Below, in pieces: positions 1 through 27,861 of a DNA stretch of 43,428 nt; within the stretch, counting starts at the first letter, position 1, and the number at the start of each line of letters is the position of its first letter. The notes under the pieces were generated by a model. The model worked only from the letters and a program-made list of their open reading frames with translations. It made no database searches and was not told the origin of the DNA. The stretch comes from an uncultured Candidatus Saccharibacteria bacterium (lineage in GTDB: Bacteria > Patescibacteriota > Minisyncoccia > Phycocordibacterales > UBA9973), in contig CAYUOT010000002.1 in assembly GCA_964446475.1 (NCBI GenBank), forward strand, positions 1 to 43,428. The letters are read 5' to 3'. The translations under genes and the position numbers were made by a program.

Positions 1-438
1 CCTTCGCTGGCATATTAAAAGTACAAGCACTTGTTCCTGTACATACAGAATCTGTTGATGTCCAACCATTAAATGAATACCCTGTTGGTGGTGTTTGAGT
101 TATTGAAATAGGAGATCCGTATTCTTTACTTCCAGCTGAAGTTCCGCCCATAGTTCCACCATTTGATGTAATGGAAAGATCATATGAATTTTTTGTATAA
201 TTCGCAGTCACTGTCACCGCCTTCGCTGGCATATTAAAAGTACAAGCACTTGTTCCTGTACAAACAGAATCTGTTGATGTCCAACCATTAAATGAATACC
301 CTGTTGGTGGTGTTTGAGTTATTGAAATAGGAGATCCGTATTCTTTACTTCCAGCTGAAGTTCCGCCCATAGTTCCACCATTGGAAGTGATGGAAAGAGA
401 GTAAGAATTAAGTCCATAATAAAAATAAATACTAAAAT
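1..438. repeat. 219-bp (73-codon) in-frame tandem duplication inside the surface-protein gene
   Basis: Unit 1-219 and unit 220-438 are identical over the first ~170 nt except one mismatch (tacatacag vs tacaaacag). The last ~50 nt have diverged. A third degenerate start (gggcatattaaaagtacaag) follows at ~446. The window edge coincides with a unit boundary. Confidence 0.9.
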
Positions 439-1813
439 TAGTTACGGGCATATTAAAAGTACAAGTTGCAGATGAACTAGTCCCACAAGGTCCATCCCAC
501 TCACTTAAATTTGTACCGGGCGCAGCATCAGATCTAGTTGCAGTACAAGATGTACCAGGAGTAACTTGGCTTCCAGAGGAAATACTTGAACCACCGCAAC
601 TCATTGTTACAGAATTATATGAACCACCATCCCAAGCTGCACCAAAAGTCAAAGTAGGTATTATTGACCAAGTTGTAGTTATTGTACAATCACCTGTAAT
701 AGTTGCACGATAAACAGAATCAGGGGCGTTATTAACGGTGTCATAAACGGTCATTGGTGTACCACCACAACCACTAATAGTTGCATAATAACCTGAATCA
801 ACTAAAACAGAAACAGGTATTTCTCCTCCAGAAGGTATATTTTGAGACACATCATTAGTTCCAGGGCTTACATAATTATAAGTTGAACTTCCAGAAGAAG
901 AAAAAGAAACTGTATACATTTGCAACCATTTTGCATACAATGTCACATCTTGATAACCAAAAGTTAAACTGCCGCCATTAGAATACACGACAGCTCCACC
1001 AGCTGAAGTTGCCCATCCATCAAAAACATAACCAGATCTTGTAAAAGTATTTGAATTTATAGTAACTGTTCCATCAGTAACACCATTTGTCTGATTTGCC
1101 ATAGTTCCAGAACCACCATTTGCATTGAAAGTAATAGTTCTAGCTTGTGCTACATAAGCCACAGAAGCAGTTGCAGCCGAGGTCATTGTAAAAGCACAAC
1201 TCTGTGAAGTACTCCCGTTACAAGATGAAGCAGCACCTGTAGCTGTCCATAGATAATTATAACCATATTGAGTAGAAGCAGCGATAGAAACAGAAGTACC
1301 GTGATTTATACTACAAGGACTAGTTGCACTTGTACAAGTACCATAAACCGAACCATTCGCATGCCCACTAGAAGAAACGGAAAGAGAATAGGTGATATTT
1401 AAAGTTGTAAAAGTTGATCGAGATGAATATCCAACTTCACTAGCACTATCTATACCATAAGCTATATAATAATAAAGTGTACCAGGAGTCAATCCTGATA
1501 ACATAGAACTAAAGGAACCTGTACCTGCAGACTCAACAGTGCAAACATTACCATAACTTCCACCTGGATATGATGGCAGATATCCACCAGCTGTTCCATA
1601 ACAAAAACCACGCCCAACTGACTCAGCTGAAGTAATACTAGAAGAAAGCATAGCTCCTGTAGCAGTGACACTAGAAGAAGAAGGAGAACTAAGAGTAGGA
1701 ATAGCAGCTTCCACTTTATTTAAATTAAATAAAAAAACAAATAAAAATAATCCTATAAAAAAGTATTTTTTGTTATTTTTTATAATATTTGATTTAAAAA
1801 TTTTATTAAACAT
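1..1813 (-). CDS. secreted multi-domain surface protein, C-terminus cut by window edge (Fn3-like module, then Listeria-Bacteroides / InlB B-repeat-type modules)
   Basis: Absent from the supplied ORF track because it has no stop in the window. Hand translation of the minus strand from the ATG at 1813-1811 (MFNKIFKSNIIKNNKKYFFIGLFLFVFLFNLNKVEAAIPTLSS...) stays open to position 1, about 604 codons. The N-terminus looks like a signal peptide. The module ITFNANGGSGTMANQ..NTFTRSGYVFDGWATSAGGAVVYSNGGSLTFGYQDVTLYAKW fits the Listeria-Bacteroides repeat consensus. Repeated YSLSITSNGGTMGGTSAGSKEYGSPISITQTPPTGYSFNGWTSTDSVCTGTSACTFNMPA modules follow. Confidence 0.8.
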   Translation of the reverse strand, partial: MFNKIFKSNIIKNNKKYFFIGLFLFVFLFNLNKVEAAIPTLSSPSSSSVTATGAMLSSSITSAESVGRGFCYGTAGGYLPSYPGGSYGNVCTVESAGTGSFSSMLSGLTPGTLYYYIAYGIDSASEVGYSSRSTFTTLNITYSLSVSSSGHANGSVYGTCTSATSPCSINHGTSVSIAASTQYGYNYLWTATGAASSCNGSTSQSCAFTMTSAATASVAYVAQARTITFNANGGSGTMANQTNGVTDGTVTINSNTFTRSGYVFDGWATSAGGAVVYSNGGSLTFGYQDVTLYAKWLQMYTVSFSSSGSSTYNYVSPGTNDVSQNIPSGGEIPVSVLVDSGYYATISGCGGTPMTVYDTVNNAPDSVYRATITGDCTITTTWSIIPTLTFGAAWDGGSYNSVTMSCGGSSISSGSQVTPGTSCTATRSDAAPGTNLSEWDGPCGTSSSATCTFNMPVTNFSIYFYYGLNSYSLSITSNGGTMGGTSAGSKEYGSPISITQTPPTGYSFNGWTSTDSVCTGTSACTFNMPAKAVTVTANYTKNSYDLSITSNGGTMGGTSAGSKEYGSPISITQTPPTGYSFNGWTSTDSVCTGTSACTFNMPAK

Positions 1814-1850
1814 ATATACAAAAATTAATTAATAAAAAATAACAAAAAAA

Positions 1851-5163: not shown

Positions 5164-5514
5164 TTATTCAGTTATTTTTAAGCGCTTCATCATTTGAGCT
5201 CTTAACTTATTACCTGGTAACATTCCATATACTGCTAGTTCATATAAACCAGCCCAACCTTTTTTCTCTATGATTTTCTCATTTGTTGCAAATTTTAAAC
5301 CACCAGGAAAACCAGAATATCTTTCATGTAATGTTTCTTTCATCTTTTTTTCAGTAGCTTTTGTTTTGCTTGCATTTATTATTTCAACTTTAACATCAGC
5401 TACTTTGTTGCGAACAAATTCTGGTGAATCTTTTGCCATTAAATATTTAGCTGCTTCTGTAGCAACCCTTCCTAAAACTTTTCCACTAGCATCAATTGTA
5501 TATACTTTTGTCAT
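5164..5514 (-). CDS. rplM: 50S ribosomal protein L13
   Basis: IDASGKVLGRVATEAAKYL and YGMLPGNKL. The track start at 5529 is a TTG. The ATG at 5514 (MTKVYTIDASG) lies just after the rplQ stop at 5516-5518 and is preferred. Confidence 0.9.
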   Translation of the reverse strand: MTKVYTIDASGKVLGRVATEAAKYLMAKDSPEFVRNKVADVKVEIINASKTKATEKKMKETLHERYSGFPGGLKFATNEKIIEKKGWAGLYELAVYGMLPGNKLRAQMMKRLKITE

Positions 5515-5515
5515 A

Positions 5516-5869
5516 TTATATAAATTCAATTATTGACATAGGACTAGCATCGCCACCCCTCTGACCTATTTTTGTAATACGAGTATAACCACCTGAACGA
5601 CCCTTATATTTTGGTGCTATTTCATTTATCAATTTATTAGCCTCTGATGTCAAATTATATAATCTTGATATAATCAAACGCTTAGAAGATAATGTTCCCT
5701 CATTTGCTTTTGTGATAAGCTTTTCAATCATTGGGCGAAGTTCTTTTGCTTTGGCTGTGGTTGTTTCTATTTTACCATGAGCAATAAGCGACAACATCAA
5801 ACCCTTCATAAGAGCATTGCGTTGATTCTTTTCCCTCCCAAATTTTCTTTTACTATTGTGATGTCGCAT
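5516..5869 (-). CDS. rplQ: 50S ribosomal protein L17
   Basis: MRHHNSKRKFGREKNQRNALMKGLMLSLIAHGKIETTTAKAKELRP. Confidence 0.95.
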   Translation of the reverse strand: MRHHNSKRKFGREKNQRNALMKGLMLSLIAHGKIETTTAKAKELRPMIEKLITKANEGTLSSKRLIISRLYNLTSEANKLINEIAPKYKGRSGGYTRITKIGQRGGDASPMSIIEFI

Positions 5870-5893
5870 AAAAATTTAAAATAAAACTATTAA

Positions 5894-6886
5894 TTATTTA
5901 AGTGTTATACCATAATCACCCAAGATTTTTTTAATCTCGTTGATTCCCTTATCTCCTATCCCTTCTATTTCAAGAAGATCTTCTTTCTTCTTGCGAGCAA
6001 TACCGCCGATAGTACGGATATTTGCTCCTGTAAGAGCATTTAAGGTTCTGGTCGAAAATGGAAGTGCGTCAATTCTTGTCTTTAGAGTATCTGTAAATTC
6101 ATTAGTATCTGATTTTTTATCATCTTCTTTTTCTTCTAAGGCTTCCTCTTTATCATTTTTAACCTTTTCTATCTTTTCTTCTATTTCTCTAGGTTTAACA
6201 ATAAACCCTAATATTGATTGCAATTGTTCAGTCATAATAACAATAGATTTTTCTAAAGCTTCATGTGGAGTAATTGTTCCATCTGTTTCAATAATCATTC
6301 TCAATCTATTGTGATTTGTTTTATCTCCTACACGCATATTTTCAACTTCATAAGCAACACGACGAATAGGAGTAAAAATAGCATCAAGAGAAATAACACC
6401 TACTTCATTTTTATCTTTTTGATGAACATCTTTAGATACAAAACCTAACCCTTTTTCTACATTCATTTCTATCTCAAGAGAATTTTTTCCTGTAACTTCT
6501 GCTATATATAAATCTTTATTTAAAATTTCAACCTGACCAGAAACTTCTATATCTCCAGCTGTAACAATTTTAGGACCTTTTATTGAAAGTTTTACAGTTT
6601 GAGGTTCATCAGTCAATAAACGAAATCTTATTTGCTTTATATTAAGCATTATAGTAATAACATCTTCTTTTACTCCATCTAAAACAGAAAATTCATGAGG
6701 TGCCCCATTTACTTTAATAGAAGTGACAGCAGCACCAGTCAAAGAAGATAATATTATTCGACGCAAAGAATTACCGAGTGTGTGTCCATAACCCGGATAA
6801 AGACTATCGATTTCATAGACACCTTTTGTGTCTACTTCAGAAACTATAGATAACTTAGATGGTAACAAAATGTTTAGATCAGACAT
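5894..6886 (-). CDS. rpoA: DNA-directed RNA polymerase alpha subunit
   Basis: GYGHTLGNSLRRILLSS-type motif (PGYGHTLGNSLRRIILSSL). C-terminal domain LPFSTRTLNALTGANIRTIGGI. Long acidic linker. The track start at 6907 is a TTG; the ATG at 6886 (MSDLNILLP) is preferred. Confidence 0.93.
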   Translation of the reverse strand: MSDLNILLPSKLSIVSEVDTKGVYEIDSLYPGYGHTLGNSLRRIILSSLTGAAVTSIKVNGAPHEFSVLDGVKEDVITIMLNIKQIRFRLLTDEPQTVKLSIKGPKIVTAGDIEVSGQVEILNKDLYIAEVTGKNSLEIEMNVEKGLGFVSKDVHQKDKNEVGVISLDAIFTPIRRVAYEVENMRVGDKTNHNRLRMIIETDGTITPHEALEKSIVIMTEQLQSILGFIVKPREIEEKIEKVKNDKEEALEEKEDDKKSDTNEFTDTLKTRIDALPFSTRTLNALTGANIRTIGGIARKKKEDLLEIEGIGDKGINEIKKILGDYGITLK

Positions 6887-6955
6887 ATGATATGTTATTT
6901 GTAGCAATTAATGCTTACAATATTTATTTATAAAAATTAACCATACGTTTATAAA

Positions 6956-7564
6956 TTATCGACTATAAAACTCAAGAACTGTGTTTAAATCAATAAAACC
7001 TTCAGTATTTTTGGGTTTACCTGCAATACTTCCAGAAAGAGCTTCTGGGTTAAATGTCAACCAGTTTGGACAAGTATAATCTTTGGAATTCTTTACAATA
7101 TCAGCAAATAATGGACTTTTTTTACTACCTTCTCTGACAGAAATGATATCTCCAACTTTTACTTCTGCTGAAGCTACATTATTTTTCTTATTATTTAAAA
7201 TAATATGACCATGAGAAACCATTTGACGAGCTGATCTGCGAGTTAAAGCTAATCCTAAACGGTAAATTACATTATCTAAACGATTTTCAAGTAATTCAAA
7301 GAGATAAATAGCTGATGGTTCTGCTTTTTGAGAAACAGATTTTTTAACATAATTGTAAAACTGCTTTTCACTTATGTTATACATAAAACGAACTTTTTGT
7401 TTTTCAATTAATTGCAAACCATAACTAGACAACATTTTAGGTCTTTTGTTTTTTAAATTTTTACTATGGCGAGCTTCAGATGCAACAAACTTTGGTGTTT
7501 GACATTTTTCAAAAACACCAGCCCCTAATCTTCTACCAATTTTATATTTTTTTACTTGCTTCAT
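6956..7564 (-). CDS. rpsD: 30S ribosomal protein S4
   Basis: YGLQLIEKQKVRFMYNISEKQF, RLDNVIYRLGLALTRRSARQMVSHGHI; expected position in the operon. Confidence 0.95.
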   Translation of the reverse strand: MKQVKKYKIGRRLGAGVFEKCQTPKFVASEARHSKNLKNKRPKMLSSYGLQLIEKQKVRFMYNISEKQFYNYVKKSVSQKAEPSAIYLFELLENRLDNVIYRLGLALTRRSARQMVSHGHIILNNKKNNVASAEVKVGDIISVREGSKKSPLFADIVKNSKDYTCPNWLTFNPEALSGSIAGKPKNTEGFIDLNTVLEFYSR

Positions 7565-13512: not shown

Positions 13513-15297
13513 TTACTCCAATACTGCCTTGATTCTACGAACCCCAGCAGATGAAGCTTCTTCTTTTTGTATTTTAAAGTGACCGAGTTCTTTTGTATTT
13601 TCCACATGAGGGCCACCACAGAATTCTATACTTACATCCCCACCAGTCGGACTGGTGGGAGTACCCACTAGATCCGACTGGTGGTCTCCACCGATAAAAT
13701 AAACAGAAACAACTTCAGGGTATTTTGCTCCAAATTCCATTTCGGCTCCAAGTTTTTCTGCTTCAGCAAGTGGAAGTTCTCGACGAACAACTTTTAACCC
13801 TCTTTGTATTTTATCATTTACCCAATCTTCCACTTTATTTTTTTCTTCATCTGTAAGCTTTCTGTCAAACATAAAGTCTATTCGAAGTCTTTCCTCTGTA
13901 ATATTACTACCTCTTTGTTTAATATTTTTATCTATCACATTTTGCAGTCCCGCAAGAAGCAAATGGTGTGCCGTGTGAAGTCGAGTAGTTTTCTCACTAT
14001 GATTTGCAAGCCCACCCTTAAACATTCCTGCAGATGCAGTTCTTGAGAGCTCTTGATGTTCTTTCAGCTTTTTATTAAAATCTTCTAAATCTATTTCTCT
14101 TCCTTTTTCTTTTGCGAGCTCAAGTGTAAGCTCTATTGGAAATCCGTAAGTTGTGAAAAGTATAAATGGATCTTCTCCTTTTTCAAATTCCTTAAGACCT
14201 TTCTCTAGTGTTTGGCGAAACTTTTCTTCTTCTTTGTTTATTTCTAATTCTATATTATTAGACTGAGCTCCAATATAAGGATAAGTTATTTCATATTTAT
14301 GAACAACAGAAGTCGCAATAAAATGTAAAGAATTATTTGGCAAACCAAGTAAATCAGAATATCTAACCATTCTTCTTATTATTCTTCTTAAAACATATCC
14401 TCTATCTGTATTTGATGGAATAACGCCATCTCCAATCATAAATACTGCTGTTCTAATATGATCAGCTATTATTCTTTTATATAGGATAGAATCATTTTTT
14501 GGTCTTAAATGATTAAAAGCTCCAAAAATATATTCAAACAAATCTGTATCAAATACTGTTTTCACTCCTTGGCAGACCATTGTGATTCTTTCGAGACCCA
14601 TACCTGTATCTACGTTGTGTTGTGCAAGTTTACCGATGACTTTTCCTTCTTTCTTTTCGTATTCCATGAAAACATTATTCCAGATTTCTATTACTCGCCC
14701 TTCATCATCTGCTTTCACAAATTCATCATGAGTCATATCACCAAGTGCAATTTCATTGGTATCATAGAAAATTTCAGTATCAGGACCACAAGGGCCATTC
14801 TCACCTGCACTCCACCAATTATTCTTTGCGGGTAAGAAATAAATGCGATTCTCTGATAAATACTTTTTCCAAATTTCATATGCTTCATTATCTCGTGGAG
14901 CATTTTCATCTCCTTCAAAGACTGTCACATAAATTCTATTTACATCTAATCCAAGCCCTGTCTCTTTATTCGTAAGAAATTCGAAACTCCAAGCGATAGC
15001 ATCCTCTTTAAAATAATCTCCAAGAGACCAATTCCCCAGCATCTCAAAAAATGTAAGGTGTCTATTATCACCCACTTCATCTATGTCTCCAGTTCTAACA
15101 CACTTTTGTGCATCGCAAAGTCTAGTCCCCATAGGATGCTTTTGTCCAAGTAAATAAGGAACGAGTGGTTGCATCCCTGCGGTATTAAAAAGAACCGAAG
15201 GGTCGTTCTCGGGTACAAGTGAAGCGCTAGGTATTATTTTATGTCCTTTACTTTCAAAAAATTTTAAAAATTTATTTCTTATTTCTTCTGATCCCAT
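13513..15297 (-). CDS. alaS: alanine--tRNA ligase, compact form (no C-Ala domain)
   Basis: FLKFFESKGHKIIPSASLVPENDPSVLFNTAGMQP. Editing-domain HTAHHLL and CGGPHV. The ATG at 15297 (MGSEEIRNKF) is preferred over 15321, which would overlap the upstream gene. Stop at 13513. Confidence 0.92.
   Translation of the reverse strand: MGSEEIRNKFLKFFESKGHKIIPSASLVPENDPSVLFNTAGMQPLVPYLLGQKHPMGTRLCDAQKCVRTGDIDEVGDNRHLTFFEMLGNWSLGDYFKEDAIAWSFEFLTNKETGLGLDVNRIYVTVFEGDENAPRDNEAYEIWKKYLSENRIYFLPAKNNWWSAGENGPCGPDTEIFYDTNEIALGDMTHDEFVKADDEGRVIEIWNNVFMEYEKKEGKVIGKLAQHNVDTGMGLERITMVCQGVKTVFDTDLFEYIFGAFNHLRPKNDSILYKRIIADHIRTAVFMIGDGVIPSNTDRGYVLRRIIRRMVRYSDLLGLPNNSLHFIATSVVHKYEITYPYIGAQSNNIELEINKEEEKFRQTLEKGLKEFEKGEDPFILFTTYGFPIELTLELAKEKGREIDLEDFNKKLKEHQELSRTASAGMFKGGLANHSEKTTRLHTAHHLLLAGLQNVIDKNIKQRGSNITEERLRIDFMFDRKLTDEEKNKVEDWVNDKIQRGLKVVRRELPLAEAEKLGAEMEFGAKYPEVVSVYFIGGDHQSDLVGTPTSPTGGDVSIEFCGGPHVENTKELGHFKIQKEEASSAGVRRIKAVLE
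13636..13692 (-). repeat. GC-rich palindromic 48-nt in-frame module plus flanking GGD-codon repeat inside alaS
   Basis: Plus strand ccaccagtcggactggtgg (13640-13658) is a perfect 9+1+9 palindrome. ccgactggtgg recurs at 13674-13684. It encodes HQSDLVGTPTSPTGGD, preceded by GGD (ggtggagac vs ggtggggat on the coding strand). The segment is strongly GC-rich against AT-rich surroundings. Confidence 0.7.
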
Positions 15298-15832: not shown

Positions 15833-17011
15833 CTATTTAACAATACCTCCCCCCAAACAAACATCTCCGTCATAAACCACTATAGACTGTCCACTATCTA
15901 CCAAAATATTTTTATCAAATATGATTTGAGTTTTATTATCTTTTGATATATTTATATTACAATCCAAAAGTTCTCCATGATATCGAATTTGTGAAGTATA
16001 CTTTTTATTCTCTTTCGGAATTATAGTCCAGTTTGTATTGATTAATTCATAGGCAAGACCTATGTTCTTTTGTTTTTCAAAATTAGTACATAGGTCTTGC
16101 CTATAAGAATGCGTCGAAGTGGAAACTATAATTATATTTTTCTCTACATCTTTTCCTACCACATAATATGGTTTATCTTTTTCTGTTTTCTCTGTAATTA
16201 CAAACCCATGCCTTTCACCAAGAGTGAAAAATACTGCTCCATCATGAGTGCCTATTACTTTTCCATTTTCATCCAACACATCCCCTTTTTTAGATTCTAT
16301 ATAATGTTTAAGAAAATCTTTCATATCGAGTGGGCCCAAGAAACAAACTCCCTGACTATCTTTTTTTGTAGCCACAGGAATTTTATATTTCAAAGCTTTC
16401 TTCCTTACTTCAGTTTTATATAAATGCCCAATGGGGAAAAGCGTGTGACTCAAATCATCTTGTGTAAGAGTCCAAAGAAAATAAGATTGATCTTTGGAAG
16501 GGTCGGGGGATTTTAGCAAACTTTGTATTCTATCTCCTCCTTTTTGAGGAGGAGTGCCCAGAGGGCGAGGTGGTAATTCTTTTAAATCACCACCCCCTAC
16601 CCCCTCCTCCACAAGGAGGGGAGAATTCACTGCATAATGTCCTGTTGCGATAAAATCTGCCCCATGTTCTTTTGCAAATTGCCAAAAGACACCAAACTTC
16701 ACCATGCGATTACACATTACATCTGGGTTGGGAGTTCTACCACATTTATACTCTTCTATCATATAGTCAGCTACACCTTTTTTGTAAGCATCTTCACCAT
16801 CACATTCAAGAAAAGGTATATCTAAGTGAGCACATACCCTCATCGCATCTCTCCTCTCGTCTCTCCAAGTACAATCTATAAAATCTGGTGTCCAAGTACG
16901 GATAAAAACCCCAACGACATCGTAACCCTGGTCTTTCAGAAGAGCGGCTGAAACAGAGCTATCTACCCCACCCGAAACCCCTACAAATACTGTTTTTTTA
17001 TTTTTATTCAT
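15833..17011 (-). CDS. mnmA: tRNA 2-thiouridine(34) synthase MnmA
   Basis: PP-loop VFVGVSGGVDSSVSAALL, ATGHYA, KDQSYFL, QIRYHGE. Confidence 0.92.
   Translation of the reverse strand: MNKNKKTVFVGVSGGVDSSVSAALLKDQGYDVVGVFIRTWTPDFIDCTWRDERRDAMRVCAHLDIPFLECDGEDAYKKGVADYMIEEYKCGRTPNPDVMCNRMVKFGVFWQFAKEHGADFIATGHYAVNSPLLVEEGVGGGDLKELPPRPLGTPPQKGGDRIQSLLKSPDPSKDQSYFLWTLTQDDLSHTLFPIGHLYKTEVRKKALKYKIPVATKKDSQGVCFLGPLDMKDFLKHYIESKKGDVLDENGKVIGTHDGAVFFTLGERHGFVITEKTEKDKPYYVVGKDVEKNIIIVSTSTHSYRQDLCTNFEKQKNIGLAYELINTNWTIIPKENKKYTSQIRYHGELLDCNINISKDNKTQIIFDKNILVDSGQSIVVYDGDVCLGGGIVK
16049..16104. repeat. 56-nt hairpin with 16-bp perfect arms inside mnmA
   Basis: ataggcaagacctatg (16049-16064) pairs with cataggtcttgcctat (16089-16104) across a 24-nt loop. 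The arm 15-mer ataggtcttgcctat also occurs at 13448-13462. Confidence 0.85.
16532..16624 (-). repeat. GC-rich triple-hairpin ~93-nt in-frame module inside mnmA
   Basis: Three hairpins: ctcctcc/ggaggag (16534-16554), ggtggt/accacc (16569-16594), cccctcct/aggagggg (16601-16621). The module encodes SPLLVEEGVGGGDLKELPPRPLGTPPQKGGD between ATGHYAVN and RIQSLLKSPDPSKDQSYFL. Confidence 0.7.
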
Positions 17012-17056: not shown

Positions 17057-17087
17057 AAAATGCGTCAGCCTTCGGCTGACGCATTTT
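17057..17087 (-). terminator. terminator after the 1072-aa surface-protein gene
   Basis: aaaatgcgtcagcc / ttc / ggctgacgcatttt: a perfect 14-bp stem with A/T-run flanks (3-nt central loop as drawn; the top pairs may open). Confidence 0.85.
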
Positions 17088-17102
17088 GTATTTAGCATTT
17101 AA

Positions 17103-20100
17103 CTATTTCAATTCATTCATCTTTGCAATAGTAAGCTTACCTATTAGACCGTCTGGAGTAAGTCCGTTTGCTTTTTGGAAAGCAATAACTGCTTGTTTAG
17201 TCTTTGGTCCGAAGATACCGTCTGGTAGACCTAGTATGTAACCTTTTGATGTTAGATATGTTTGTATTTGTTTGATATCATCCCCTCTTGTGCCTTGTTT
17301 TAGAAGTCTAGTGTATATCATAGAGAAAGAAGGAGTAGTGATAGGGTTTTTGATTTCTGGATTAGTATTTACTATGTTTTCTGATTTTTTGCCTAGTAGT
17401 GTAGATGGATTGATACTACCGATAACTCGGGAATGTCTTTTTGTATCGTTATCATCCTCATCGTCTACTACATCACAAGCACTTGTGGTAAATGTCATAT
17501 CTTCTCCGTATGATGTTCCTGCACTGTTAGTAGCATAGGCTCGATAGTGGTATGTAGTATTGCAATCTAGATTACTTAGATCATATGAGAATGTACCTGT
17601 TGCTTCTTCCATTTCTACTGTACCTGTAGCCATTAGATATGAATTATCTAATCCTATTTGGAATCCGAGTTCAGATAAATCTTCTCCTCCGTTGTTTGTT
17701 ACTTCTCCTTTTAGGGTGGCTCCTGTTTGAGTGATAGATGTAGGGGTAGATGAAATTAATGTGGGAATAGAAATAGGTTTTACATATTTCATTATGATAG
17801 CTTTATTATTGTTAGTATCGTCTACATATGCTACATATAGAGTATCATTTAAAGAAAAAACGAGAGAGGTATAATCAGCTTCCCCAGTAGAGAATTCAAT
17901 TAATCCAACAGAAACCCAAGAATTTCCATCAAATTTCATAACAGTGGCTTTATTATTATTAGCAAAATCTGAATATGCTACATATGGAATACCATCTGAA
18001 GAAATATCAATAGTAATATATTCAACTATTCCTGCCGAGAACCCAGCTGAACCAACAAGAATCCATGATGAACCATCAAATTTCATAACAGTAGCTTTCT
18101 GGTTATTAGCACCATCTTGATATGCTATATATAGAGTATTATCTGGAGAAATTGATAAATCTAAATATGCTAAACCAGAACTTACCCAACCTTCTGAAAA
18201 TCCAGCTGGACCAACAAGAATCCATGATGAACCATCAAATTTCATAACAGTAGCCTTACTGCTATTAGCATTATCTGAATATGCTACATATGGAGTATTA
18301 TCTGGAGAAATAGCGAAAGAAATATTATAAACTCCAGTTGCTGAAAATCCAGCTTGGCCAACAGGAATCCATGATGAACCATCAAATTTCATAACGGTGG
18401 CTTTATAGTTATTAGCACTATCTGTATATGCTACGTATGGAGTGCCATCTGAAGAAAAAGCAAGAGATAAACCATTAGACCATTGTGCTGAAAATCCAGC
18501 TTGGCCAACAGGAATCCATGATGTTCCATCAAATTTCATAACATTAATTTTACCACTCATACCATCTACATATGCTACATAGGGAATATTATCTGGAGAA
18601 ATTAATAAATCTGAATATCCTTGACTAACACTTATATAACTTTCTGAAAATCCAGCTTGGCCAACAGGAATCCATGATGAACCATCAAATTTCATGACGG
18701 TAGCTTTACCACTATTATTAACATTATCTGAATATGCTACATATGGAATATTGTCTGTAGAGACAGAGAAACTAATACCCCCCAAACTTTCTGAAATTCC
18801 AACTGAATCAACGGGGACCCAAAAATCATCATGAAAAGTAATACTTCCTTGATTATTTGTATAATTTATAACACCACTTGCAGTTGCAGTATCTGTAAAT
18901 GCTCCATCTAAAAATGTAATCGTAAGATTTGAAATACTATCAGATAAAAGACTATCCGTAGCATTACCCGTGAAAGTCAAAATTGCAATTGTTCCATCAC
19001 TATTAATGGTCATAACAGGAGTTAAACCAGAAGGCATAGGAGAAATAGTATAATGAGTGTTTAAGGTTAAGGTACTATTTGCATTTATAAAAGTATCATT
19101 TGCTAAGGTTATTACCCTACTACCAGTAACACTTCCATTATTAGATTCCAACTCACTGAAATTACCAGAGTATGATGTAATAATAGGATCAAAAATAAGT
19201 TTCATGATGGTGGCGTATTTTTCAGTACTATTTCCATTTGTATATACTACATATGGAATATCATCTGAAGAAATAGCAAGAGAAATATTACGAGCTGATC
19301 CTGCTGAAAATCCAGCTTGGCCAACAGGAATCCATGATGAACCATCAAATTTCATAGCAGTAGCTTTATTATAATTATCGAGATCTGCATATACTACATA
19401 TGGAGTATTGTCTGAAGAAAAAGCAAGTTTACCACCACCAGATTCTGATGAAAACCCAACTGGACCAACGGGAACCCAAGCTGAACTATCAAATTTCATG
19501 ACAGTGGTTTTATTATCATCTGCATATGCTACATATGGAATGTCGTCTGAAGAAAAAGCAAGAGAAATATAATTAGTCCAACCTGTTGAGAAATTAGCTG
19601 AACCAACTAGAACCCAAGAATTTCCATCAAATTTCATGACGGTAGTTTCATTACTATTGTCTCTATCTAGATATGCTACATATGGAGTGTCATCTGAAGA
19701 AAAAGCAAAAGAAATACCATTAACTTTTCCTAATGAGAAATTAGCTGAACCAACTAGAACCCAAGAATTTCCATCAAATTTCATGACGGTAGGTTTATTA
19801 CGGTAATAAAGATGATCAATATATGCTACGTATGGAGTGCCGTCTGAAGAAAAAGCAAGAGAAATACCACTAGCTCTTCCTGGTGAAAAACCAACTGACC
19901 CAACGGGAATCCAAGAATTTCCATCAAATTTCATGACAGTGATTTTATCATTATTAGCATCATCTACATATGCTACATATGGAATGTCGTCTGAAGAAAA
20001 AGCAAGAGAAAAATCACTAGCATCCCCTGCTGAAAAACCAACTGACCCAACGGGAACCCAAGTTGAAGTTAAACCATCAAATTTCACGACAGTGGCTTCA

Positions 20101-20321
20101 TTACTATTATCCACATCTTGATATGCTACATATGGGGTGTCGTCTGAAGAAATAGCAAGAGAAGTATTACTAGTCCAATATGCTGGAAGTTCAACTGATC
20201 CAACTTGATTCCAAGCACCAGTTGCTGCTCTGGCTTGATTCGGTAATAATACAAAACTTGAAACAATCAAACACAATGCGAATACGAAAACCGATGCGGG
20301 AACATTTTTTTTGAGAATCAT
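17103..20321 (-). CDS. secreted surface protein: two 7-repeat (propeller-like) arrays, Ig-like linker, Fn3-like module, C-terminal peptidoglycan-binding domain
   Basis: Signal peptide ...LLPNQARAATGAW. There are 7 + 7 repeats of ~58 aa with consensus TPYVAY.D..N..KATVMKFDGSSWIPVG.AGFS.G......SLAFSSDD. Fn3-like SSTPTSITQTGATLKGEV...TTYHYRAYATNSAGTSYGEDMTFTT. PG_binding_1-like GTRGDDIKQIQTYLTSKGYILGLPDGIFGPKTKQAVIAFQKANGLTPDGLIG. Confidence 0.8.
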   Translation of the reverse strand: MILKKNVPASVFVFALCLIVSSFVLLPNQARAATGAWNQVGSVELPAYWTSNTSLAISSDDTPYVAYQDVDNSNEATVVKFDGLTSTWVPVGSVGFSAGDASDFSLAFSSDDIPYVAYVDDANNDKITVMKFDGNSWIPVGSVGFSPGRASGISLAFSSDGTPYVAYIDHLYYRNKPTVMKFDGNSWVLVGSANFSLGKVNGISFAFSSDDTPYVAYLDRDNSNETTVMKFDGNSWVLVGSANFSTGWTNYISLAFSSDDIPYVAYADDNKTTVMKFDSSAWVPVGPVGFSSESGGGKLAFSSDNTPYVVYADLDNYNKATAMKFDGSSWIPVGQAGFSAGSARNISLAISSDDIPYVVYTNGNSTEKYATIMKLIFDPIITSYSGNFSELESNNGSVTGSRVITLANDTFINANSTLTLNTHYTISPMPSGLTPVMTINSDGTIAILTFTGNATDSLLSDSISNLTITFLDGAFTDTATASGVINYTNNQGSITFHDDFWVPVDSVGISESLGGISFSVSTDNIPYVAYSDNVNNSGKATVMKFDGSSWIPVGQAGFSESYISVSQGYSDLLISPDNIPYVAYVDGMSGKINVMKFDGTSWIPVGQAGFSAQWSNGLSLAFSSDGTPYVAYTDSANNYKATVMKFDGSSWIPVGQAGFSATGVYNISFAISPDNTPYVAYSDNANSSKATVMKFDGSSWILVGPAGFSEGWVSSGLAYLDLSISPDNTLYIAYQDGANNQKATVMKFDGSSWILVGSAGFSAGIVEYITIDISSDGIPYVAYSDFANNNKATVMKFDGNSWVSVGLIEFSTGEADYTSLVFSLNDTLYVAYVDDTNNNKAIIMKYVKPISIPTLISSTPTSITQTGATLKGEVTNNGGEDLSELGFQIGLDNSYLMATGTVEMEEATGTFSYDLSNLDCNTTYHYRAYATNSAGTSYGEDMTFTTSACDVVDDEDDNDTKRHSRVIGSINPSTLLGKKSENIVNTNPEIKNPITTPSFSMIYTRLLKQGTRGDDIKQIQTYLTSKGYILGLPDGIFGPKTKQAVIAFQKANGLTPDGLIGKLTIAKMNELK

Positions 20322-24786: not shown

Positions 24787-26604
24787 TTAATTTTTTTGTG
24801 AAGATTTAGCTTTTGATCTATCCTGTTCTTTTAAAAGCTTTTTCCTTAACCGAATGCTTTTAGGTGTAATTTCTAAATATTCATCATTTGCCATTATTTC
24901 TAATCCTCTTTCAATACTTAACTTAAAGGGTGGTTTAACATTAATAGCCTCATCTGTTCCAGAAGAACGCATATTTGAAAGTTGTTTACTTTTAGTAGGA
25001 TTTACACCCATTTCATCACCTTTTAAAACATTACCAATGACCATTCCTTCATAAACATCATCCCCGTGTTCAACATATAATACCCCTCTTTCTTGAAGCG
25101 TCCAAAGAGAGAAAGCAATTATTTTCCCAGCTACCAATGATGTCATAGAACCAACATCTCGCTTCTTTATCTCACCTCCGTATTCCTTAAATCCAATAAA
25201 TCGTGCAGAAAGAATTCCTTCACCACGAGTATCTACTACAAATTGTCCACGGTAACCAAGAAGTCCGCGTGTTGGAATTTCTAAAAACATTCGAGTAATG
25301 CCTTCTTTTTCATACATATTTGTTATAAGCCCACGACGAGAAGTTAACTTCTCAATCACACTTCCTGAATATTCATTCCTTACATCAATAGCTACTTCTT
25401 CATAAGGCTCTAAGGTTTTTCCGTTCTCTTCTTTTATAATTACGTGAGGTTGAGAAACCTGAAGTTCGTATCCTTCACGACGCATATTTTCAAGTAATAC
25501 TGCAATATGAAGTTCACCTCTTCCATAGACAAGAAATCCTTCTGACATTTCTTCTTCATCTTTATGATCAAAATCTACTCTAAGCCCTACATTCATCTCA
25601 AGTTCTTTTTCAAGCCTTTCTCTTATTTGTCTACTTGTTACATACTTTCCTTCACGTCCTGCAAAAGGAGAATCATTGACTAAGAAGTTTAGAGAAATTG
25701 TTGGCTCATCAATAGTTATTGAAGGTAAAGCTACTGTATCTTTATTATCACAAAGTGTCTCCCCTATATATATGTCTGGAATTCCAGCAATGATTGCGAT
25801 ATCACCAGTATTTAATACGTCTACTTCTTTCCTTGCTATCCCCTCAAATGTAAACATTTTAGAAATTTTCGCTGTACGAGTTTTACCATCTGCATCTTTA
25901 ACAATTATTTGTGAACCACTTTTTACAGAACCAGAATAAATACGAGCGATGGCAAGTCTTCCAAGAAAATTATCATAACCTAAATTAAATACTTGAGCGG
26001 AAAATGGCTTATCTTGATTGACAGAAGCCTCAGGAACTTCTTGTAGTATTAAATCAAACAAAGGAGTTAAATCTTTCGATTCATCTTCCATTTTTAATTT
26101 GGCAATTCCTTGCTTGCCTATAGCATACATGGTTTTAAAATCTATCTGTTCTTCACTAGCCCCTAATTCCAAAAATAACTCTAAAACCTCTTCATGAACT
26201 TTTTCTGGATTAGCTGCAGGCTTATCTATTTTATTTATAACCACAATAGGCTTAAGACCAAGTTCAAGAGATTTTTTTAATACAAAACGAGTTTGTGGCA
26301 TTGGACCTTCTTGTGCATCAACTAAAAGTAAAACAGAATCAATCGCACGTAAAACACGCTCAACTTCAGAACCGAAGTCAGCATGGCCAGGAGTGTCCAC
26401 AATATTTATTTTTGTATTTTTATAGTTAACAGAAGTATTCTTTGAATAAATAGTAATTCCTCTTTCTAACTCAAGAGCGTTTGAATCCATAGTGGCACCA
26501 TCTTCGTTCATCCCACATTGTTTCATCATTTCATCGGTCAGAGTTGTTTTTCCGTGATCAACGTGTGCAATTATAGCTATATTTCGTATTTCTTTTGGTT
26601 GCAT
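24787..26604 (-). CDS. typA: translational GTPase TypA/BipA
   Basis: [62 protein letters not shown]. Confidence 0.93.
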
Positions 26605-26717
26605 TATATTTAAATCTTAATTTTAATATTCGTCTATAAAAATAAAATCGCCTTATGGCGAAAGTCATTTATTTACTTTTCACACAATATCATACTTTTT
26701 TAAATATGTAAATAATA

Positions 26718-26752
26718 AAAAATCCATGCTAATCTTATTTGCATGGATTTTT
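26718..26752 (-). terminator. terminator after rseP
   Basis: aaaaatccatgc / 11-nt loop / gcatggattttt. Confidence 0.7.
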
Positions 26753-26763
26753 ATAATATCTAT

Positions 26764-27861
26764 TTAAAATAACTTTACAATATCATGGAAAGTTACTACA
26801 GCCATGAGAAGCATTAGAATTCCAAAACCTATAGTATTAACCCAGTTTGCAATTGATGGTTTAATACGAGAACCTTTTATTTTTTCTATTAATAAGAAAA
26901 GCAATCTTCCTCCATCTAAAGCTGGAAATGGCATAAGATTTATGACTGCCAAATTAATAGAAATGAGAGCTGTGAAAGAAAGCAAATAAACAAAACCAAA
27001 CTCTCTAGCATCACCAACTACCCCAACAATACCGATAGGACCAGTCACAGAGTTCATATCTGCTTTCCCTAAAACAGCATCTCTTAATAAATTAAAAAAT
27101 CCTATAGTTGTTGCTTTTGTTAAATTACATGTGAGTTTTGCCCCCTCCCATAAAGCTTTATGTGGTGGAATTTGAAGTTTACCAATTATATCCATTGTAA
27201 TACCAATAGCTCCATTTTCTCCAATAATCCCAGAAGTTGGAATAATTTTTACATCATTTATCTCATCTGCTCTTTTGTATTTGATACCTAACTCTTTTCC
27301 ATTTTTTGTTTTGACGAAATTACTAAATTCAGTTGTATCAAGAGGATTATTTATAAATTCATCTCCATATTCTATTGATAGTATTTTATCTCCAGTTTTT
27401 ATTCCTGCTTTTTCTGCTGGACTATCAGGCAAAACGCTCGTTATGGTCAAGGCTTTATCTTTTATAACTGTATTTTCTGGGGCACTATCCACAGAAGTAG
27501 GGAGGCCTGACATAAAACCAACAGAAAGGAGTATCCATGCAACTAAAATATTCATTACAACACCAGCAATCAAAACAAAAGCTTGTATATATCTTGGTTT
27601 ATTTACAAAACTTCTATCTTTATCTTTACCATTTATATTTTCTTCATCAGGATCTTCTCCGTAAATTTTAACATAGCCACCAAAAGGAATAGCATTGAAA
27701 TTGTATTCTGTCTCCCCTTTTTTAAAACCGAAAAGTTTTGGTTTAAAACCGAAAGAAAATTCATCCACCCTTATCCCCGACTTTTTCGCAACAATAAAAT
27801 GCCCAAATTCATGAGATAATACTAAAACTAATAAAATTATAAGAAAAATTAAAATATTCAT
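26764..27861 (-). CDS. rseP: RIP metalloprotease RseP (M50 site-2 protease with PDZ)
   Basis: HEFGHFIVAKKSGIRVDEFSFGF, PDZ-like SPAEKAGIKTGDKILSI, and NLMPFPALDGGRLLF. Confidence 0.9.
   Translation of the reverse strand: MNILIFLIILLVLVLSHEFGHFIVAKKSGIRVDEFSFGFKPKLFGFKKGETEYNFNAIPFGGYVKIYGEDPDEENINGKDKDRSFVNKPRYIQAFVLIAGVVMNILVAWILLSVGFMSGLPTSVDSAPENTVIKDKALTITSVLPDSPAEKAGIKTGDKILSIEYGDEFINNPLDTTEFSNFVKTKNGKELGIKYKRADEINDVKIIPTSGIIGENGAIGITMDIIGKLQIPPHKALWEGAKLTCNLTKATTIGFFNLLRDAVLGKADMNSVTGPIGIVGVVGDAREFGFVYLLSFTALISINLAVINLMPFPALDGGRLLFLLIEKIKGSRIKPSIANWVNTIGFGILMLLMAVVTFHDIVKLF

What the first reader, a model, noticed from the sequence alone, without database searches (positions are those of the whole stretch)
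16532..16624. Triple-hairpin GC-rich ~93-nt in-frame module in MnmA sharing the LGTP-x4-GGD motif and GGD flanks with the alaS module
What the sequence shows: three consecutive perfect hairpins in a GC-rich patch inside an AT-rich gene.
- CTCCTCC/GGAGGAG at 16534-16554
- GGTGGT/ACCACC at 16569-16594
- CCCCTCCT/AGGAGGGG at 16601-16621

The reading frame is kept and encodes SPLLVEEGVGGGD-LKELPPRPLGTPPQKGGD.

The second half parallels the alaS insert:
- DLVGTPTSPTGGD (alaS) versus RPLGTPPQKGGD (mnmA).
- On the coding strand both read GG(T/C)ACTCC, then a hairpin, then GAT.
- The stem sequences differ (CCCACCAGT..ACTGGTGGG vs CTCCTCC..GGAGGAG), so the structure is conserved with different stems.
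- Both modules are preceded by another GGD codon triplet.

What established knowledge adds: MnmA proteins normally have only about 15-20 residues between ATGHYA and KDQSYFL. Here there are about 47.

Inference: one or two tandem copies of the same palindromic element family have inserted into a second essential gene.
Basis: partly seen in the sequence, partly recalled or inferred. Interest (0 to 1): 0.75.

Follow-up and report, generated by a model that had tools for sequence, protein, structure and literature searches.

The report
Triplex-forming DNA repeat inside mnmA
A 93-base GC-rich patch in an essential tRNA-modification gene of an ultra-small (CPR) bacterium is an in-frame copy of a widespread repeat that can fold into DNA triple helices, a repeat so far described only between genes, and copies of this repeat also flank a small endonuclease gene (DUF559) that may be what spreads it.

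Summary
Window 16532-16624 (minus strand) holds three perfect hairpins and adds exactly 31 codons (S130-D160) to MnmA.

The hairpins are better read another way. Each half of the patch is a perfect G/C-rich purine-motif intrastrand triplex motif: a pyrimidine arm, a purine arm and a mirror-image third strand. This is the BoxC / PIT / "TM" kind of repeat (PMC4666352). The two motifs are inverted, and the "middle hairpin" is their two third strands pairing.

- The module is a dispersed repeat. Its invariant 20-mer hit more than 120 genome loci in many phyla, mostly between genes.
- In Patescibacteria it also sits in frame in uvrB, uvrC, recJ, topA, murB, tgt, pheS, pheT, lepA, a sufS-like gene and a second mnmA site.
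- A 92%-identical relative lacks it.
- It is better conserved than its host gene (95.7% against 72.6%).
- AlphaFold predicts a disordered loop.

The alaS insert is not the same family. It is an ordinary palindrome that also serves as a terminator hairpin in a sister genome.

New lead: all 19 DUF559 (Vsr-like endonuclease) loci examined, from CPR bacteria to E. coli ycjD, have triplex motifs beside the gene. No role for DUF559 has been shown.

The parts
15833..17011 (-). mnmA (tRNA 2-thiouridine synthase), 392 aa, the host gene
   Evidence: ORF list. Pfam PF03054, PF20259 and PF20258. Homologues at 65-98% identity are named MnmA. PDB MnmA entries 9hlv, 2hma and 2der match at E of about 1e-75.
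16532..16624 (-). The inserted module: 93 nt, codons S130-D160, an inverted (tail-to-tail) pair of intrastrand triplex motifs
   Evidence: Covariance model R1 scores 112.3 bits, E = 1.5e-22, and this is the only real hit in the window. Absent from L002, P0004 and P0005. Residues 132-162 have pLDDT below 50.
16589..16621 (-). Left triplex motif, on the sense strand: Y arm CCCCTCCT (16621-16614), loop TGTGG, R arm AGGAGGGG (16608-16601), loop 2 GTAG (16600-16597), mirror third strand GGGGTGGT (16596-16589)
   Evidence: Own triplex finder gives 8 of 8 triplets (G*G:C and T*A:T). It finds 0 such motifs in 200 shuffles of the window and 0 in 5000 shuffles of the module.
16534..16574 (+). Right triplex motif, on the antisense strand: Y arm CTCCTCCT (16534-16541), loop TTTTG, R arm AGGAGGAG (16547-16554), loop 2 TGCCCAGAGGGC (itself a small GCCC/GGGC hairpin), third strand GAGGTGGT (16567-16574)
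   Evidence: In all 12 aligned copies the purine arm, the pyrimidine arm and the third strand change together: ACTCCTCC..GGAGGAG goes with ACCACCTC, and ACCCCTCC..GGAGGGG goes with ACC(A/G)CCCC.
16575..16588 (.). AT-rich spacer between the two third strands (AATTCTTTTAAATC, with the TTTAAA palindrome). It is the loop of the apparent middle hairpin.
   Evidence: Its length and sequence vary among copies, from 10 to about 55 nt.
13636..13683 (-). For comparison, not part of the family: the in-frame 48-nt palindromic insert in alaS (HQSDLVGTPTSPTGGD) between IGGD and VSIEFCGG
   Evidence: Orthologues in 29 loci have 8-10 aa at this position. Fold -36.1 kcal/mol, z = -4.4. R1 scores 12.5 bits, which is noise. 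Its palindrome recurs as the L002 terminator hairpin.

Best explanation
The 93-nt patch is a copy of a dispersed, non-coding DNA repeat. It is built from two inverted G/C-rich purine-motif (class II) intrastrand triplex motifs, the kind known as BoxC, PIT element or "TM".

- **Anatomy.** Each half is a pyrimidine arm, a short loop, the complementary purine arm, a second loop, and a G/T (or G/A/T) strand that mirrors the purine arm. As single-stranded DNA that third strand can fold back on the hairpin by reverse-Hoogsteen G*G:C and T(A)*A:T triplets.
- **Insertion (inferred from presence/absence).** The unit entered mnmA between codons N129 and R161, at the tip of a beta-hairpin. Its length is a multiple of three, and one of its two open frames is in register with the gene.
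- **Translation (inferred).** It is read through and adds a 31-residue Gly/Pro-rich, probably disordered surface loop that MnmA tolerates.
- **Conservation.** What is conserved is DNA sequence and triplex potential, not the peptide.
- **Spread (not shown).** How copies spread is unknown. The best candidate partner is the small Vsr-like endonuclease DUF559. Its genes are bounded by the same motifs in every locus examined, much as RAYT transposase genes are bounded by REPs.
For: **Anatomy**
- There are two perfect 8-triplet motifs, one per strand, and none elsewhere in the 43 kb. Shuffles give none.
- The architecture matches the published TMECO pattern CCCTCNCCC-N3-6-GGGNGAGGG-N3-GGGNGAGGG (PMC4666352).
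- It also matches the published E. coli inverted pairs, which always combine two types differing in loop 2.
- The third strand changes together with the duplex in 12 of 12 aligned copies and across many other stem variants.

**A dispersed repeat**
They include Acidobacteriota, Ignavibacteria, Patescibacteria, Armatimonadota, Proteobacteria and Clostridia, and most copies are intergenic.
- Model R1 finds full modules in these phyla.

**Insertion**
- L002 mnmA is 91.7% nt identical but lacks the module. P0004 and P0005 have 15-aa loops.
- The same module lies at a different mnmA site in L014/L098.
- In-frame copies occur in UvrB, MurB, TopA, Tgt, RecJ, LepA, a class-V aminotransferase, PheT, PheS and UvrC, all confirmed by Pfam.

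**Constraint on the DNA**
- Module against the rest of mnmA: 95.7 vs 72.6%, 86.5 vs 65.4% and 88.8 vs 69.7% nt identity.

**Tolerated loop**
- Residues 132-162 have pLDDT below 50 and no secondary structure, between strands 127-129 and 165-167.
- PDB homologues have no counterpart of this segment.

**DUF559 link**
- All 10 independent loci from CPR bacteria, Ignavibacteria and Bacteroidota have a perfect motif within 65 nt of the gene. In the closest family one lies 10-22 nt upstream and one 9-17 nt downstream, with the third strands pointing away from the gene.
- All 8 plasmid or chromid loci from other phyla have such motifs, each genome with its own stem sequence.
- E. coli ycjD has a TMECO about 170 nt downstream.
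- Background in 50-kb windows around four of these genes is 2-22 motifs.
- 34 of 120 DUF559 homologue ORFs run into motif-derived peptides.
Against: - Triplex folding of this particular sequence is inferred from the base-triplet rules. It has not been measured.
- Translation of the insert is inferred from the open frame and from lengths that are multiples of three. There are no proteomic data.
- In E. coli the published motif is "always intergenic", and its authors found no mobility genes nearby (PMC4666352).
- No target-site duplication was seen.
- In the mnmA copies seen as DNA or peptide (window, L003, L004, L114, P0006, P0014, P0019, P0023) the module starts exactly two codons after GHYA. 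This fits one old insertion kept under strong constraint as well as it fits repeated site-specific insertion.
- No DUF559 gene lies in this window.
- A 115-aa PD-(D/E)XK protein is unlikely to be a complete transposase.
- The DUF559 association could instead reflect regulation of the gene, or DUF559 cassettes landing at the motifs.
Confidence: 0.8

Rival explanations
1. It is a GTAG-tagged REP/REPIN (BIME-like) element mobilised by a RAYT (IS200/IS605-type Y1) transposase, inserted into a gene as described for "REP-decorated" proteins.
For: - GTAG lies directly 5' of the stem GGGGTGGT...ACCACCCC.
- REPs inside genes are documented, often in repair genes and tRNA synthetase genes, and RPEs are treated as a CGTC-tagged family (PMC3733652).
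- There is no target-site duplication and presence/absence is clean. I know both as features of single-strand HUH transposition; that is from my own knowledge.
Against: - GTAG is loop 2 of the triplex motif and varies among copies: TA, CTA, TTG, TCG, GCAGG, or a 12-nt mini-hairpin.
- Single units carry GTAG+GGGGTGGT with no ACCACCCC partner, so there is no REP stem in them.
- REPs have no mirror third strand.
- Clustering about 2000 ORFs from 120 loci found no recurrent Y1 transposase near the copies. The recurrent neighbour is DUF559.
Confidence: 0.07
2. The hairpins are a functional mRNA structure selected in mnmA, for example for translational pausing, mRNA stability or regulation. The DNA repeat aspect would be secondary.
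For: - The sense RNA folds very stably, z = -6.8.
- G.U pairs outnumber A.C pairs 94 to 29 on the G-rich strand over 72 copies.
- About three quarters of the 120 closest MnmA homologues carry some insert at this loop, and in the loci examined as DNA the inserts of several unrelated families fold stably.
- The H1 arm AAGGAGGGG resembles a Shine-Dalgarno sequence. It sits about 7-10 nt before the start codon of several DUF559 genes.
Against: - The same unit is mostly intergenic, in either orientation, and occurs in many unrelated genes.
- The G.U excess is concentrated in H2. It is explained by the two different third strands (GGGGTGGT against GAGGTGGT), each matched to its own duplex, so it reflects a triplex constraint rather than an RNA one.
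- The count is also biased by the orientation of the model.
- No Rfam family matches.
- Close relatives do without it.
Confidence: 0.07
3. Ordinary loop evolution: a lineage-specific protein insertion selected for a function of the peptide, such as tRNA or partner contact. The hairpins would follow incidentally from Gly/Pro codons.
For: - The loop is hypervariable in length (14-62 aa) in this clade.
- In Patescibacteria the in-frame copies found with the 20-mer all use the same frame..PLLxxEGVGGG...
Against: - Nucleotide identity of the module exceeds that of the gene.
- The peptide differs at loop positions while the stems are kept or compensated.
- The same DNA is read in other frames or on the other strand elsewhere: SPCEGGVPEGRGG in L007 mnmA, TTPYPLL, PPPTPSL, HHPLPPP.
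- It occurs between genes in many phyla.
- The predicted loop is disordered.
- Only 2 of the 6 frames of this copy are open, which by itself limits the choice of frame (by reading the sequence).
Confidence: 0.04
4. Assembly or sequencing artefact: a chimeric join at a GC-rich palindrome.
For: Palindromes can cause misassembly, and the source is a metagenome.
Against: - An identical gene is present in an independent Logan assembly.
- A 98%-identical protein cluster has 8 member sequences.
- The insertion is exact and in frame, with conserved flanks.
- The same module is at the same codon in contigs from unrelated projects: L003, L004 and L114.
Confidence: 0.01

Closest known systems
BoxC / PIT (potential intrastrand triplex) elements / TMECO triplex motifs of E. 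coli and other bacteria (Holder et al. 2015, PMC4666352, which cites Hoyne/Maher 2000 and the 1990s BoxC work)
   Same: - Three-block architecture: a C-rich arm, a 3-6 nt loop, a G-rich arm, a short second loop (TTA/CTA/GTA-like), and a second G-rich block that mirrors the first.
[quoted passage not shown]
- Dispersed in many copies and very well conserved.
- Often found as inverted pairs of two types that differ in loop 2.
- Varies between close strains.
   Different: - The stem sequence differs: CCCCTCCT/AGGAGGGG/GGGGTGGT against CCCTCNCCC/GGGNGAGGG/GGGNGAGGG.
- TMECO was reported from 262 proteobacterial genomes. This variant occurs in Patescibacteria, Acidobacteriota, Ignavibacteria and others.
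- TMECO is reported as always intergenic, with no mobility gene nearby. Here copies lie in frame inside essential genes, and every DUF559 gene examined has such motifs beside it.
- Triplex formation by this variant has not been tested.
Rickettsia palindromic elements (RPE). Their in-frame insertion in ORFs is from my own knowledge (Ogata et al. 2000) and is also summarised in PMC3733652 and PMC2229807.
   Same: A short palindromic repeat inserted in frame into many housekeeping genes of a reduced genome. It is translated as an extra surface segment and also occurs between genes.
   Different: RPEs are restricted to Rickettsia, have unrelated sequences, end in CGTC (PMC3733652) and have no triplex third strand. 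This family spans many phyla.
GTAG-tagged REPs / REPINs and their RAYT transposases ("REPtrons"; PMC3733652, PMC3116915)
   Same: - Small GC-rich stem-loop repeats that occur as singletons or inverted dimers.
- Some lie inside repair genes and tRNA synthetase genes.
- A single-copy enzyme gene is flanked by inverted copies of the repeat it is thought to spread. DUF559 plays that part here.
   Different: - GTAG here is a loop, not a terminal tag.
- The defining feature is the mirror third strand.
- The flanked gene encodes a Vsr-like PD-(D/E)XK nuclease (DUF559), not a Y1 HUH transposase.
Vsr-like (EDxHD) homing endonucleases such as I-Bth0305I (PMC3239194, PMC2677866)
   Same: They are a precedent for a Vsr-fold nuclease acting as a selfish mobility enzyme.
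   Different: They are a different family, are encoded in introns or inteins, and cleave long asymmetric targets. No activity is known for DUF559; its only structure is the structural-genomics entry 3hrl.

Membership tests
BoxC / PIT / TM (G/C-rich class II intrastrand triplex motif) | A homopyrimidine arm and the complementary homopurine arm form a hairpin of 6-15 bp with a loop of 1-6 nt | tested here: met
   CCCCTCCT/AGGAGGGG with loop TGTGG, and CTCCTCCT/AGGAGGAG with loop TTTTG
BoxC / PIT / TM (G/C-rich class II intrastrand triplex motif) | A third block after a second loop mirrors the purine arm (G for G, A or T for A), so that reverse-Hoogsteen triplets are possible | tested here: met
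   GGGGTGGT and GAGGTGGT both give 8 of 8 triplets. Shuffles give none. The third strand changes together with the duplex in 12 of 12 copies. Loop 2 of the right unit is 12 nt, longer than the 1-6 nt used by ITxF, but it forms its own mini-hairpin.
BoxC / PIT / TM (G/C-rich class II intrastrand triplex motif) | A conserved repeat dispersed in many copies across genomes | tested here: met
   More than 120 loci carry the exact 20-mer, several of them from the same genome. R1 gives 108 matches at E <= 0.001 in 100 of these loci, about 72 distinct copies once overlapping and opposite-strand matches are merged.
BoxC / PIT / TM (G/C-rich class II intrastrand triplex motif) | Match to the TMECO consensus CCCTCNCCC-N3-6-GGGNGAGGG-N3-GGGNGAGGG | tested here: not met
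   The stem sequence is different. It is the same kind of motif but a different family. The E. coli copy beside ycjD does fit the consensus.
BoxC / PIT / TM (G/C-rich class II intrastrand triplex motif) | Intergenic location, reported as "always" for E. coli | tested here: not met
   The copy lies in frame in mnmA. At least ten other genes in Patescibacteria carry copies.
BoxC / PIT / TM (G/C-rich class II intrastrand triplex motif) | Forms a stable triplex in vitro (CD, NMR, footprint) | not testable with these tools
   This needs oligonucleotide biophysics.
Rickettsia palindromic elements (RPE) | A palindromic repeat inserted in frame in ORFs and also found between genes | tested here: met
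Rickettsia palindromic elements (RPE) | Sequence homology to RPE-1..8, a CGTC terminus, and a Rickettsia host | tested here: not met
   The host is a Paceibacteria-like CPR bacterium and there is no CGTC terminus. No sequence comparison against RPE consensus sequences was run.
GTAG-tagged REP / REPIN | An unpaired terminal GTAG next to a 6-13 bp stem-loop | tested here: inconclusive
   GTAG does precede GGGGTGGT..ACCACCCC in the dimer. But it lies inside the element, varies among copies, and is present in single units that have no partner stem.
GTAG-tagged REP / REPIN | A RAYT gene flanked by the repeats | tested here: not met
   No recurrent Y1 transposase appeared among about 2000 ORFs of 120 loci. 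DUF559 recurs instead. Whole genomes were not searched.
MITE | Terminal inverted repeats, under 300 bp, no coding capacity of its own | tested here: met
   The element is 93 nt and its two arms are inverted, related units.
MITE | A target-site duplication and a cognate transposase with matching TIRs | tested here: inconclusive
   No duplication is visible at the mnmA, uvrB, topA or murB junctions. DUF559 cassettes carry the same units as inverted ends, but DUF559 is not a known transposase.

The most novel reading that the evidence does not exclude
DUF559, a widespread Vsr-like endonuclease of unknown function (E. coli YcjD), is the missing partner enzyme of the BoxC/PIT/TM intrastrand-triplex repeats.

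- Its gene forms a selfish cassette bounded by inverted triplex motifs, a triplex counterpart of the RAYT-REP "REPtron".
- The enzyme recognises or nicks the folded motif and so seeds new copies.
- In the CPR these copies colonise permissive loops of essential genes, with mnmA as a hot spot, and add new peptide segments.
Probability: 0.35. Interest if true: 0.85.

Novelty: new variant of a known kind. Interest (0 to 1): 0.7.

Why it matters
**1. A second case of repeats colonising essential genes.** Rickettsia was the textbook case of selfish palindromic DNA settling inside essential genes. This window shows the same process in the ultra-small CPR bacteria, with a different element. Hosts include uvrB, uvrC, recJ, topA, murB, tgt, pheS/T, lepA and mnmA, and nine of the ten motifs found in 82 MnmA-centred loci lie inside mnmA. 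Anyone aligning or annotating CPR proteins, or building trees from them, should be aware of this.

**2. A gap in what is known about triplex repeats.** BoxC/PIT/TM repeats have been known since the 1990s. They form triplexes in vitro and mark unstable loci, but they have had no known origin, function or mobility factor. They were also thought to be intergenic (PMC4666352). This study finds copies inside genes.

**3. A testable candidate enzyme.** All 19 DUF559 loci examined, in at least seven phyla and including E. coli ycjD, have such motifs beside the gene. That gives a concrete candidate that can be tested in E. coli.

**4. A possible fragile site.** A sequence that may stall polymerases now sits inside an essential gene, so it could be a built-in fragile or regulatory site.

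Tried and rejected
- **Rfam.** An E-value scan of the region and a gathering-threshold scan of 8 cross-phylum loci gave only chance miRNA-like hairpin matches far below threshold, plus an unrelated Acido-Lenti-1 hit.
- **Peptide search with the insert.**
  - A 62-aa concatenate found only two fragments, one of them a UvrB piece. That search was essentially wasted.
- **Phage origin.** The 20-mer occurs in only 4 viral contigs, so the element is not primarily phage-borne.
- **RAYT or other transposase near the copies.** All-against-all clustering of about 2000 ORFs gave none.
- **The GTAG-REP reading.** I held this for a while and dropped it once the mirror third strand was recognised.
- **G.U excess as evidence for an RNA structure.** Rejected. 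It is explained by the two different third strands and is biased by the orientation of the model.
- **GGGYACTCC as a family signature linking alaS and mnmA.** Rejected. The third copy in the window is ordinary rpsK coding sequence, and R1 does not detect alaS.
- **Literature.** Searches on CPR with palindromic elements, on the motif's 12-14-mers, and on DUF559 with repeats found no paper describing this.
- **First hairpin scan.** It timed out and was rerun with a GC prefilter.
Full report
**1.

The window has 30.4% GC. The gene at 15833-17011 on the minus strand is MnmA (Pfam PF03054, PF20259 and PF20258; closest homologues are from Candidatus Paceibacterota/Nomurabacteria).

- At 16532-16624 the GC content rises to 50-53%.
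- The sense strand folds at -57.1 kcal/mol, z = -6.8, and none of 200 dinucleotide shuffles folds as well.
- The frame stays open and reads SPLLVEEGVGGGDLKELPPRPLGTPPQKGGD, residues 130-160.
- Only two comparably GC-rich hairpin patches lie inside genes in the 43 kb: this one and one in alaS.
- An independent Logan assembly carries the identical gene, so this is not an assembly artefact.

**2. It is an insertion**

- Between TGHYA and DQSYF the protein has 46 residues. Many homologues have 14-22. Solved MnmA structures align to residues 4-127 and 163-391 only.
- The relative L002 is 91.7% identical in nucleotides over the rest of the gene but lacks the module.
- P0004 and P0005 have a 15-residue loop, RIKNNSLLKSPDSSK. 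The window's loop minus S130-D160 is also 15 residues, VN|RIQSLLKSPDPSK.
- AlphaFold (45-sequence alignment; mean pLDDT 69.5) gives pLDDT below 50 and no secondary structure for residues 132-162, between strands 127-129 and 165-167.

**3. It is a dispersed repeat, not a private loop**

- L003 encodes a MnmA that is 72% identical in protein. It carries the module with 4 differences in 92-93 nt, while the rest of the gene is 72.6% identical. Other pairs show the same excess: 86.5 vs 65.4% and 88.8 vs 69.7%.
- In L014/L098 the same module sits at a different place in mnmA.
- The 20-mer AGGAGGGGGTAGGGGGTGGT is invariant in these copies.
- The hits come from Terriglobia/Acidobacteriota, Ignavibacteria, Kapaibacteria, many Patescibacteria, Armatimonadota, Clostridia, Geobacterales, sphingomonads, Thioploca and others. 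Several genomes carry multiple copies, and most copies lie between genes.
- In Patescibacteria, in-frame copies lie in UvrB, MurB and TopA (full modules), in Tgt (two or more copies) and PheS, and in RecJ, LepA, a class-V aminotransferase, PheT and UvrC (single units). Pfam confirms all these hosts.
- A covariance model built from 12 copies finds exactly one real hit in the window, at 112.3 bits and E = 1.5e-22. It also finds full modules across phyla.
- Rfam has nothing like it.

**4. What the unit really is**

While following a neighbour gene (section 6) I found that E. coli ycjD is followed by a repeat present at a median of 18 places per E. coli genome. This repeat is the known BoxC / PIT / TMECO element, an intrastrand triplex motif (Holder et al. 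2015, PMC4666352).

Applying the triplet rules to the window gives two perfect motifs and nothing else. There were none in 200 shuffles of the window and none in 5000 shuffles of the module.

| Strand | Y arm | Loop 1 | R arm | Loop 2 | Third strand |
|---|---|---|---|---|---|
| minus (sense) | CCCCTCCT | TGTGG | AGGAGGGG | GTAG | GGGGTGGT |
| plus (antisense) | CTCCTCCT | TTTTG | AGGAGGAG | TGCCCAGAGGGC | GAGGTGGT |

- In each motif the third block is the mirror image of the purine arm: G opposite G, and T or A opposite A. This is the class II purine motif.
- "GTAG" is a loop, not a REP tag.
- The small GCCC/GGGC hairpin is loop 2 of the right unit.
- The purine arm, the pyrimidine arm and the third strand change together in 12 of 12 aligned copies. 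Many other stem variants with matching third strands occur in the loci.
- Holder et al. report that TMECO forms a triplex in vitro, that purine-motif triplexes do not form in RNA, and that the motif marks unstable loci. In E. coli they found it always intergenic, with five inverted pairs that always combine two loop-2 types. They found no mobility gene nearby.
- The module is thus a new sequence variant of a known kind of repeat, in a location where that kind had not been described.

**5. The alaS insert is a different thing**

- alaS carries 16 extra codons (13636-13683, minus strand) compared with 29 orthologues, and the insert folds well.
- Its arms are mixed-sequence, so no triplex is possible, and the triplex finder reports no motif there.
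- The model scores it at noise level, 12.5 bits and E = 0.24.
- Its 17-nt palindrome CACCAGTCGGACTGGTG recurs once in all the loci held. There it forms the stem of a terminator-like hairpin upstream of mnmA in the sister contig L002: AAAACCACCACCAGTCGGACTGGTGGCGGTTTT.
- The window has an unrelated hairpin at that spot.
- The shared GGYACTCC/GGD is not specific, because the third GGGCACTCC in the window encodes KKGTPFAA of ribosomal protein S11.
The claim that the two inserts belong to one family does not.

**6. The DUF559 lead**

- Clustering all ORFs of the 120 loci gave no transposase. The most recurrent neighbour was a 115-residue DUF559 protein (PF04480; Vsr-like; its D..ExDG..H motif is intact).
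- In L113, L155/L208 and L223 the gene has a motif 10-22 nt upstream, whose AAGGAGGGGG arm sits where a ribosome-binding site would be. Another motif lies 9-17 nt downstream. Both third strands point away from the gene.
- L210 and L220 were chosen only through the protein. Both have a full mnmA-type module directly upstream (99.6 and 69.8 bits). Both copies were later included in the seed alignment of the model, so these scores are inflated.
- Of the 120 closest DUF559 homologues, 34 called ORFs run into motif-derived peptides. These include SSPPCGGGVPEGRGGD, which is the other-strand reading of the module's right half. It also occurs as an mnmA insert in L007.
- Outside the CPR, all 8 plasmid or chromid loci examined have triplex motifs beside the gene, each with its own stems and usually with CTA/TTA/GTA-type second loops. 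The taxa are Photobacterium, Deinococcus, Synechocystis, Pseudanabaena, Picosynechococcus, Azospirillum, Sinorhizobium and Neisseria.
- Local background in 50-kb windows around four of these genes is 2, 8, 4 and 22 motifs.
- With E. coli ycjD, 19 of 19 loci show the association.
- Caveat on sampling: seven of the CPR-type loci were found through the motif itself. Only the adjacency to the gene, not the presence of a motif, is informative for those.
- Only 25 papers in the library mention DUF559. Going by their titles and abstracts, none connects it to repeats. Vsr-fold homing endonucleases are a precedent for a selfish role.
- What is shown is the association. That DUF559 spreads the motifs is an inference. 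Alternatives are that the motifs regulate DUF559, or that DUF559 cassettes land at such motifs.

**7. Things that remain open**

- In 82 MnmA-centred loci (697 kb) the strict finder sees 10 motifs. Nine lie inside mnmA and one lies 22 nt after it. With the three family-A loci removed it is still four of five.
- The same loop also holds unrelated perfect palindromes in other lineages: L008, L011, L018 and L060.
- Why this gene and this loop are such a hot spot is unexplained. It could be a permissive beta-hairpin tip, a DNA target, or hairpins attracting hairpins.
- In the mnmA copies seen as DNA or peptide (window, L003, L004, L114, P0006, P0014, P0019, P0023) the module starts exactly two codons after GHYA. 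Either there was one old insertion held under very strong DNA-level constraint and lost precisely in several lineages, or insertion is site-specific. The data do not decide between these.
- No target-site duplication is visible.
- Translation of the insert is inferred only.

**Verdict**

It is a mobile-type repeat inserted in frame, but it is a pair of triplex motifs, and the alaS insert is unrelated.
- It is a new variant of a known kind.
- Interest is above average, for two reasons: the intragenic location in essential CPR genes, and the general, apparently undescribed link between DUF559 genes and triplex motifs.

Noticed in passing
window 13636-13683 (-), alaS: A 48-nt in-frame palindromic insert (HQSDLVGTPTSPTGGD) lies between imperfect direct repeats GGTGGAGAC and GGTGGGGAT. 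It is absent from 29 orthologues. L011 has a different hairpin insert at the same site (KRSDLKGAQGLTFGSRND).
   Followed up: partly
L002 541-580 against window 17062-17095 (-): Two contigs that are 92% identical carry unrelated terminator-like hairpins at the same place upstream of mnmA. L002 has AAAACCACCACCAGTCGGACTGGTGGCGGTTTT and the window has AAAATGCGTCAGCCGAAGGCTGACGCATTTT. The L002 stem is the palindrome found inside the window's alaS.
   Followed up: partly
mnmA loop between TGHYA and DQSYF in L008, L011, L018, L060, L226, L228 and in P0003-P0120: This one loop carries at least seven unrelated insert families. Some are perfect 20-22 bp palindromes (L008, L011). About three quarters of the 120 closest homologues have an insert there.
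   Followed up: partly
L018 (Ga0209518_1004843) 1671-3086 and about 5400-7200: One CPR contig has a 487-aa MnmA with three separate GC-rich hairpin inserts and a 627-aa AlaS with two. This genome seems riddled with such insertions.
   Followed up: no
L230 (E. coli K-12 NC_000913 1351205-1351238), downstream of ycjD: The only DUF559 gene in this E. coli region is followed about 170 nt later by a TMECO/BoxC triplex motif (type A, one mismatch). The repeat has a median of 18 places per E. coli genome.
   Followed up: partly
L242 (Photobacterium sp. GJ3 pGJ3-1) 25412-26990: A 1.6-kb array of about 12 alternating triplex motifs of two stem types (TCCCCCTT and CCCTCCCC) starts 58 nt after the DUF559 gene. 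A second such array lies 18 kb away.
   Followed up: no
L092, L094, L100, L101, L124, L127, L134, L138, L140, L162, L163, L165, L176, L179, L198 (Armatimonadota and unclassified MAGs): A larger conserved repeat of about 110 nt contains the left triplex unit between conserved AT-rich flanks (...ATTATCAAGTAACTATCATAACTCCCCTCCTTGCCAAGGAGGGGGTAGGGGGTGGTTTGGTTGATTATATAATTAGTATGGTTTTGCAAGAGCC). The reverse strand has promoter-like hexamers and an SD-ATG. It may be the end of another element.
   Followed up: no
L095, L152, L156, L171, L173 (Ignavibacteria CoA_1_bin.73): Head-to-head pairs of the unit with the third strands pointing outward, which is the arrangement that flanks DUF559, but with only about 8 nt between them. 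They look like gene-less derivatives of the cassette.
   Followed up: no
L114 (Nomurabacteria GW2011_GWA2_40_9) mnmA, C-terminal third: Besides the canonical module, this MnmA has a second repeat-like insert (SLRPPLTGEGWGEV) near the site used by the module in L014.
   Followed up: no
window 17103-20321 (-): A 1072-aa protein made of about 15 tandem units of about 45 aa each (...TPYVAY.D..N..K.TVMKFDG..W..VG..GFS...), with a C-terminal peptidoglycan-binding-like tail. The homologous position in L002 holds the end of a related gene.
   Followed up: no
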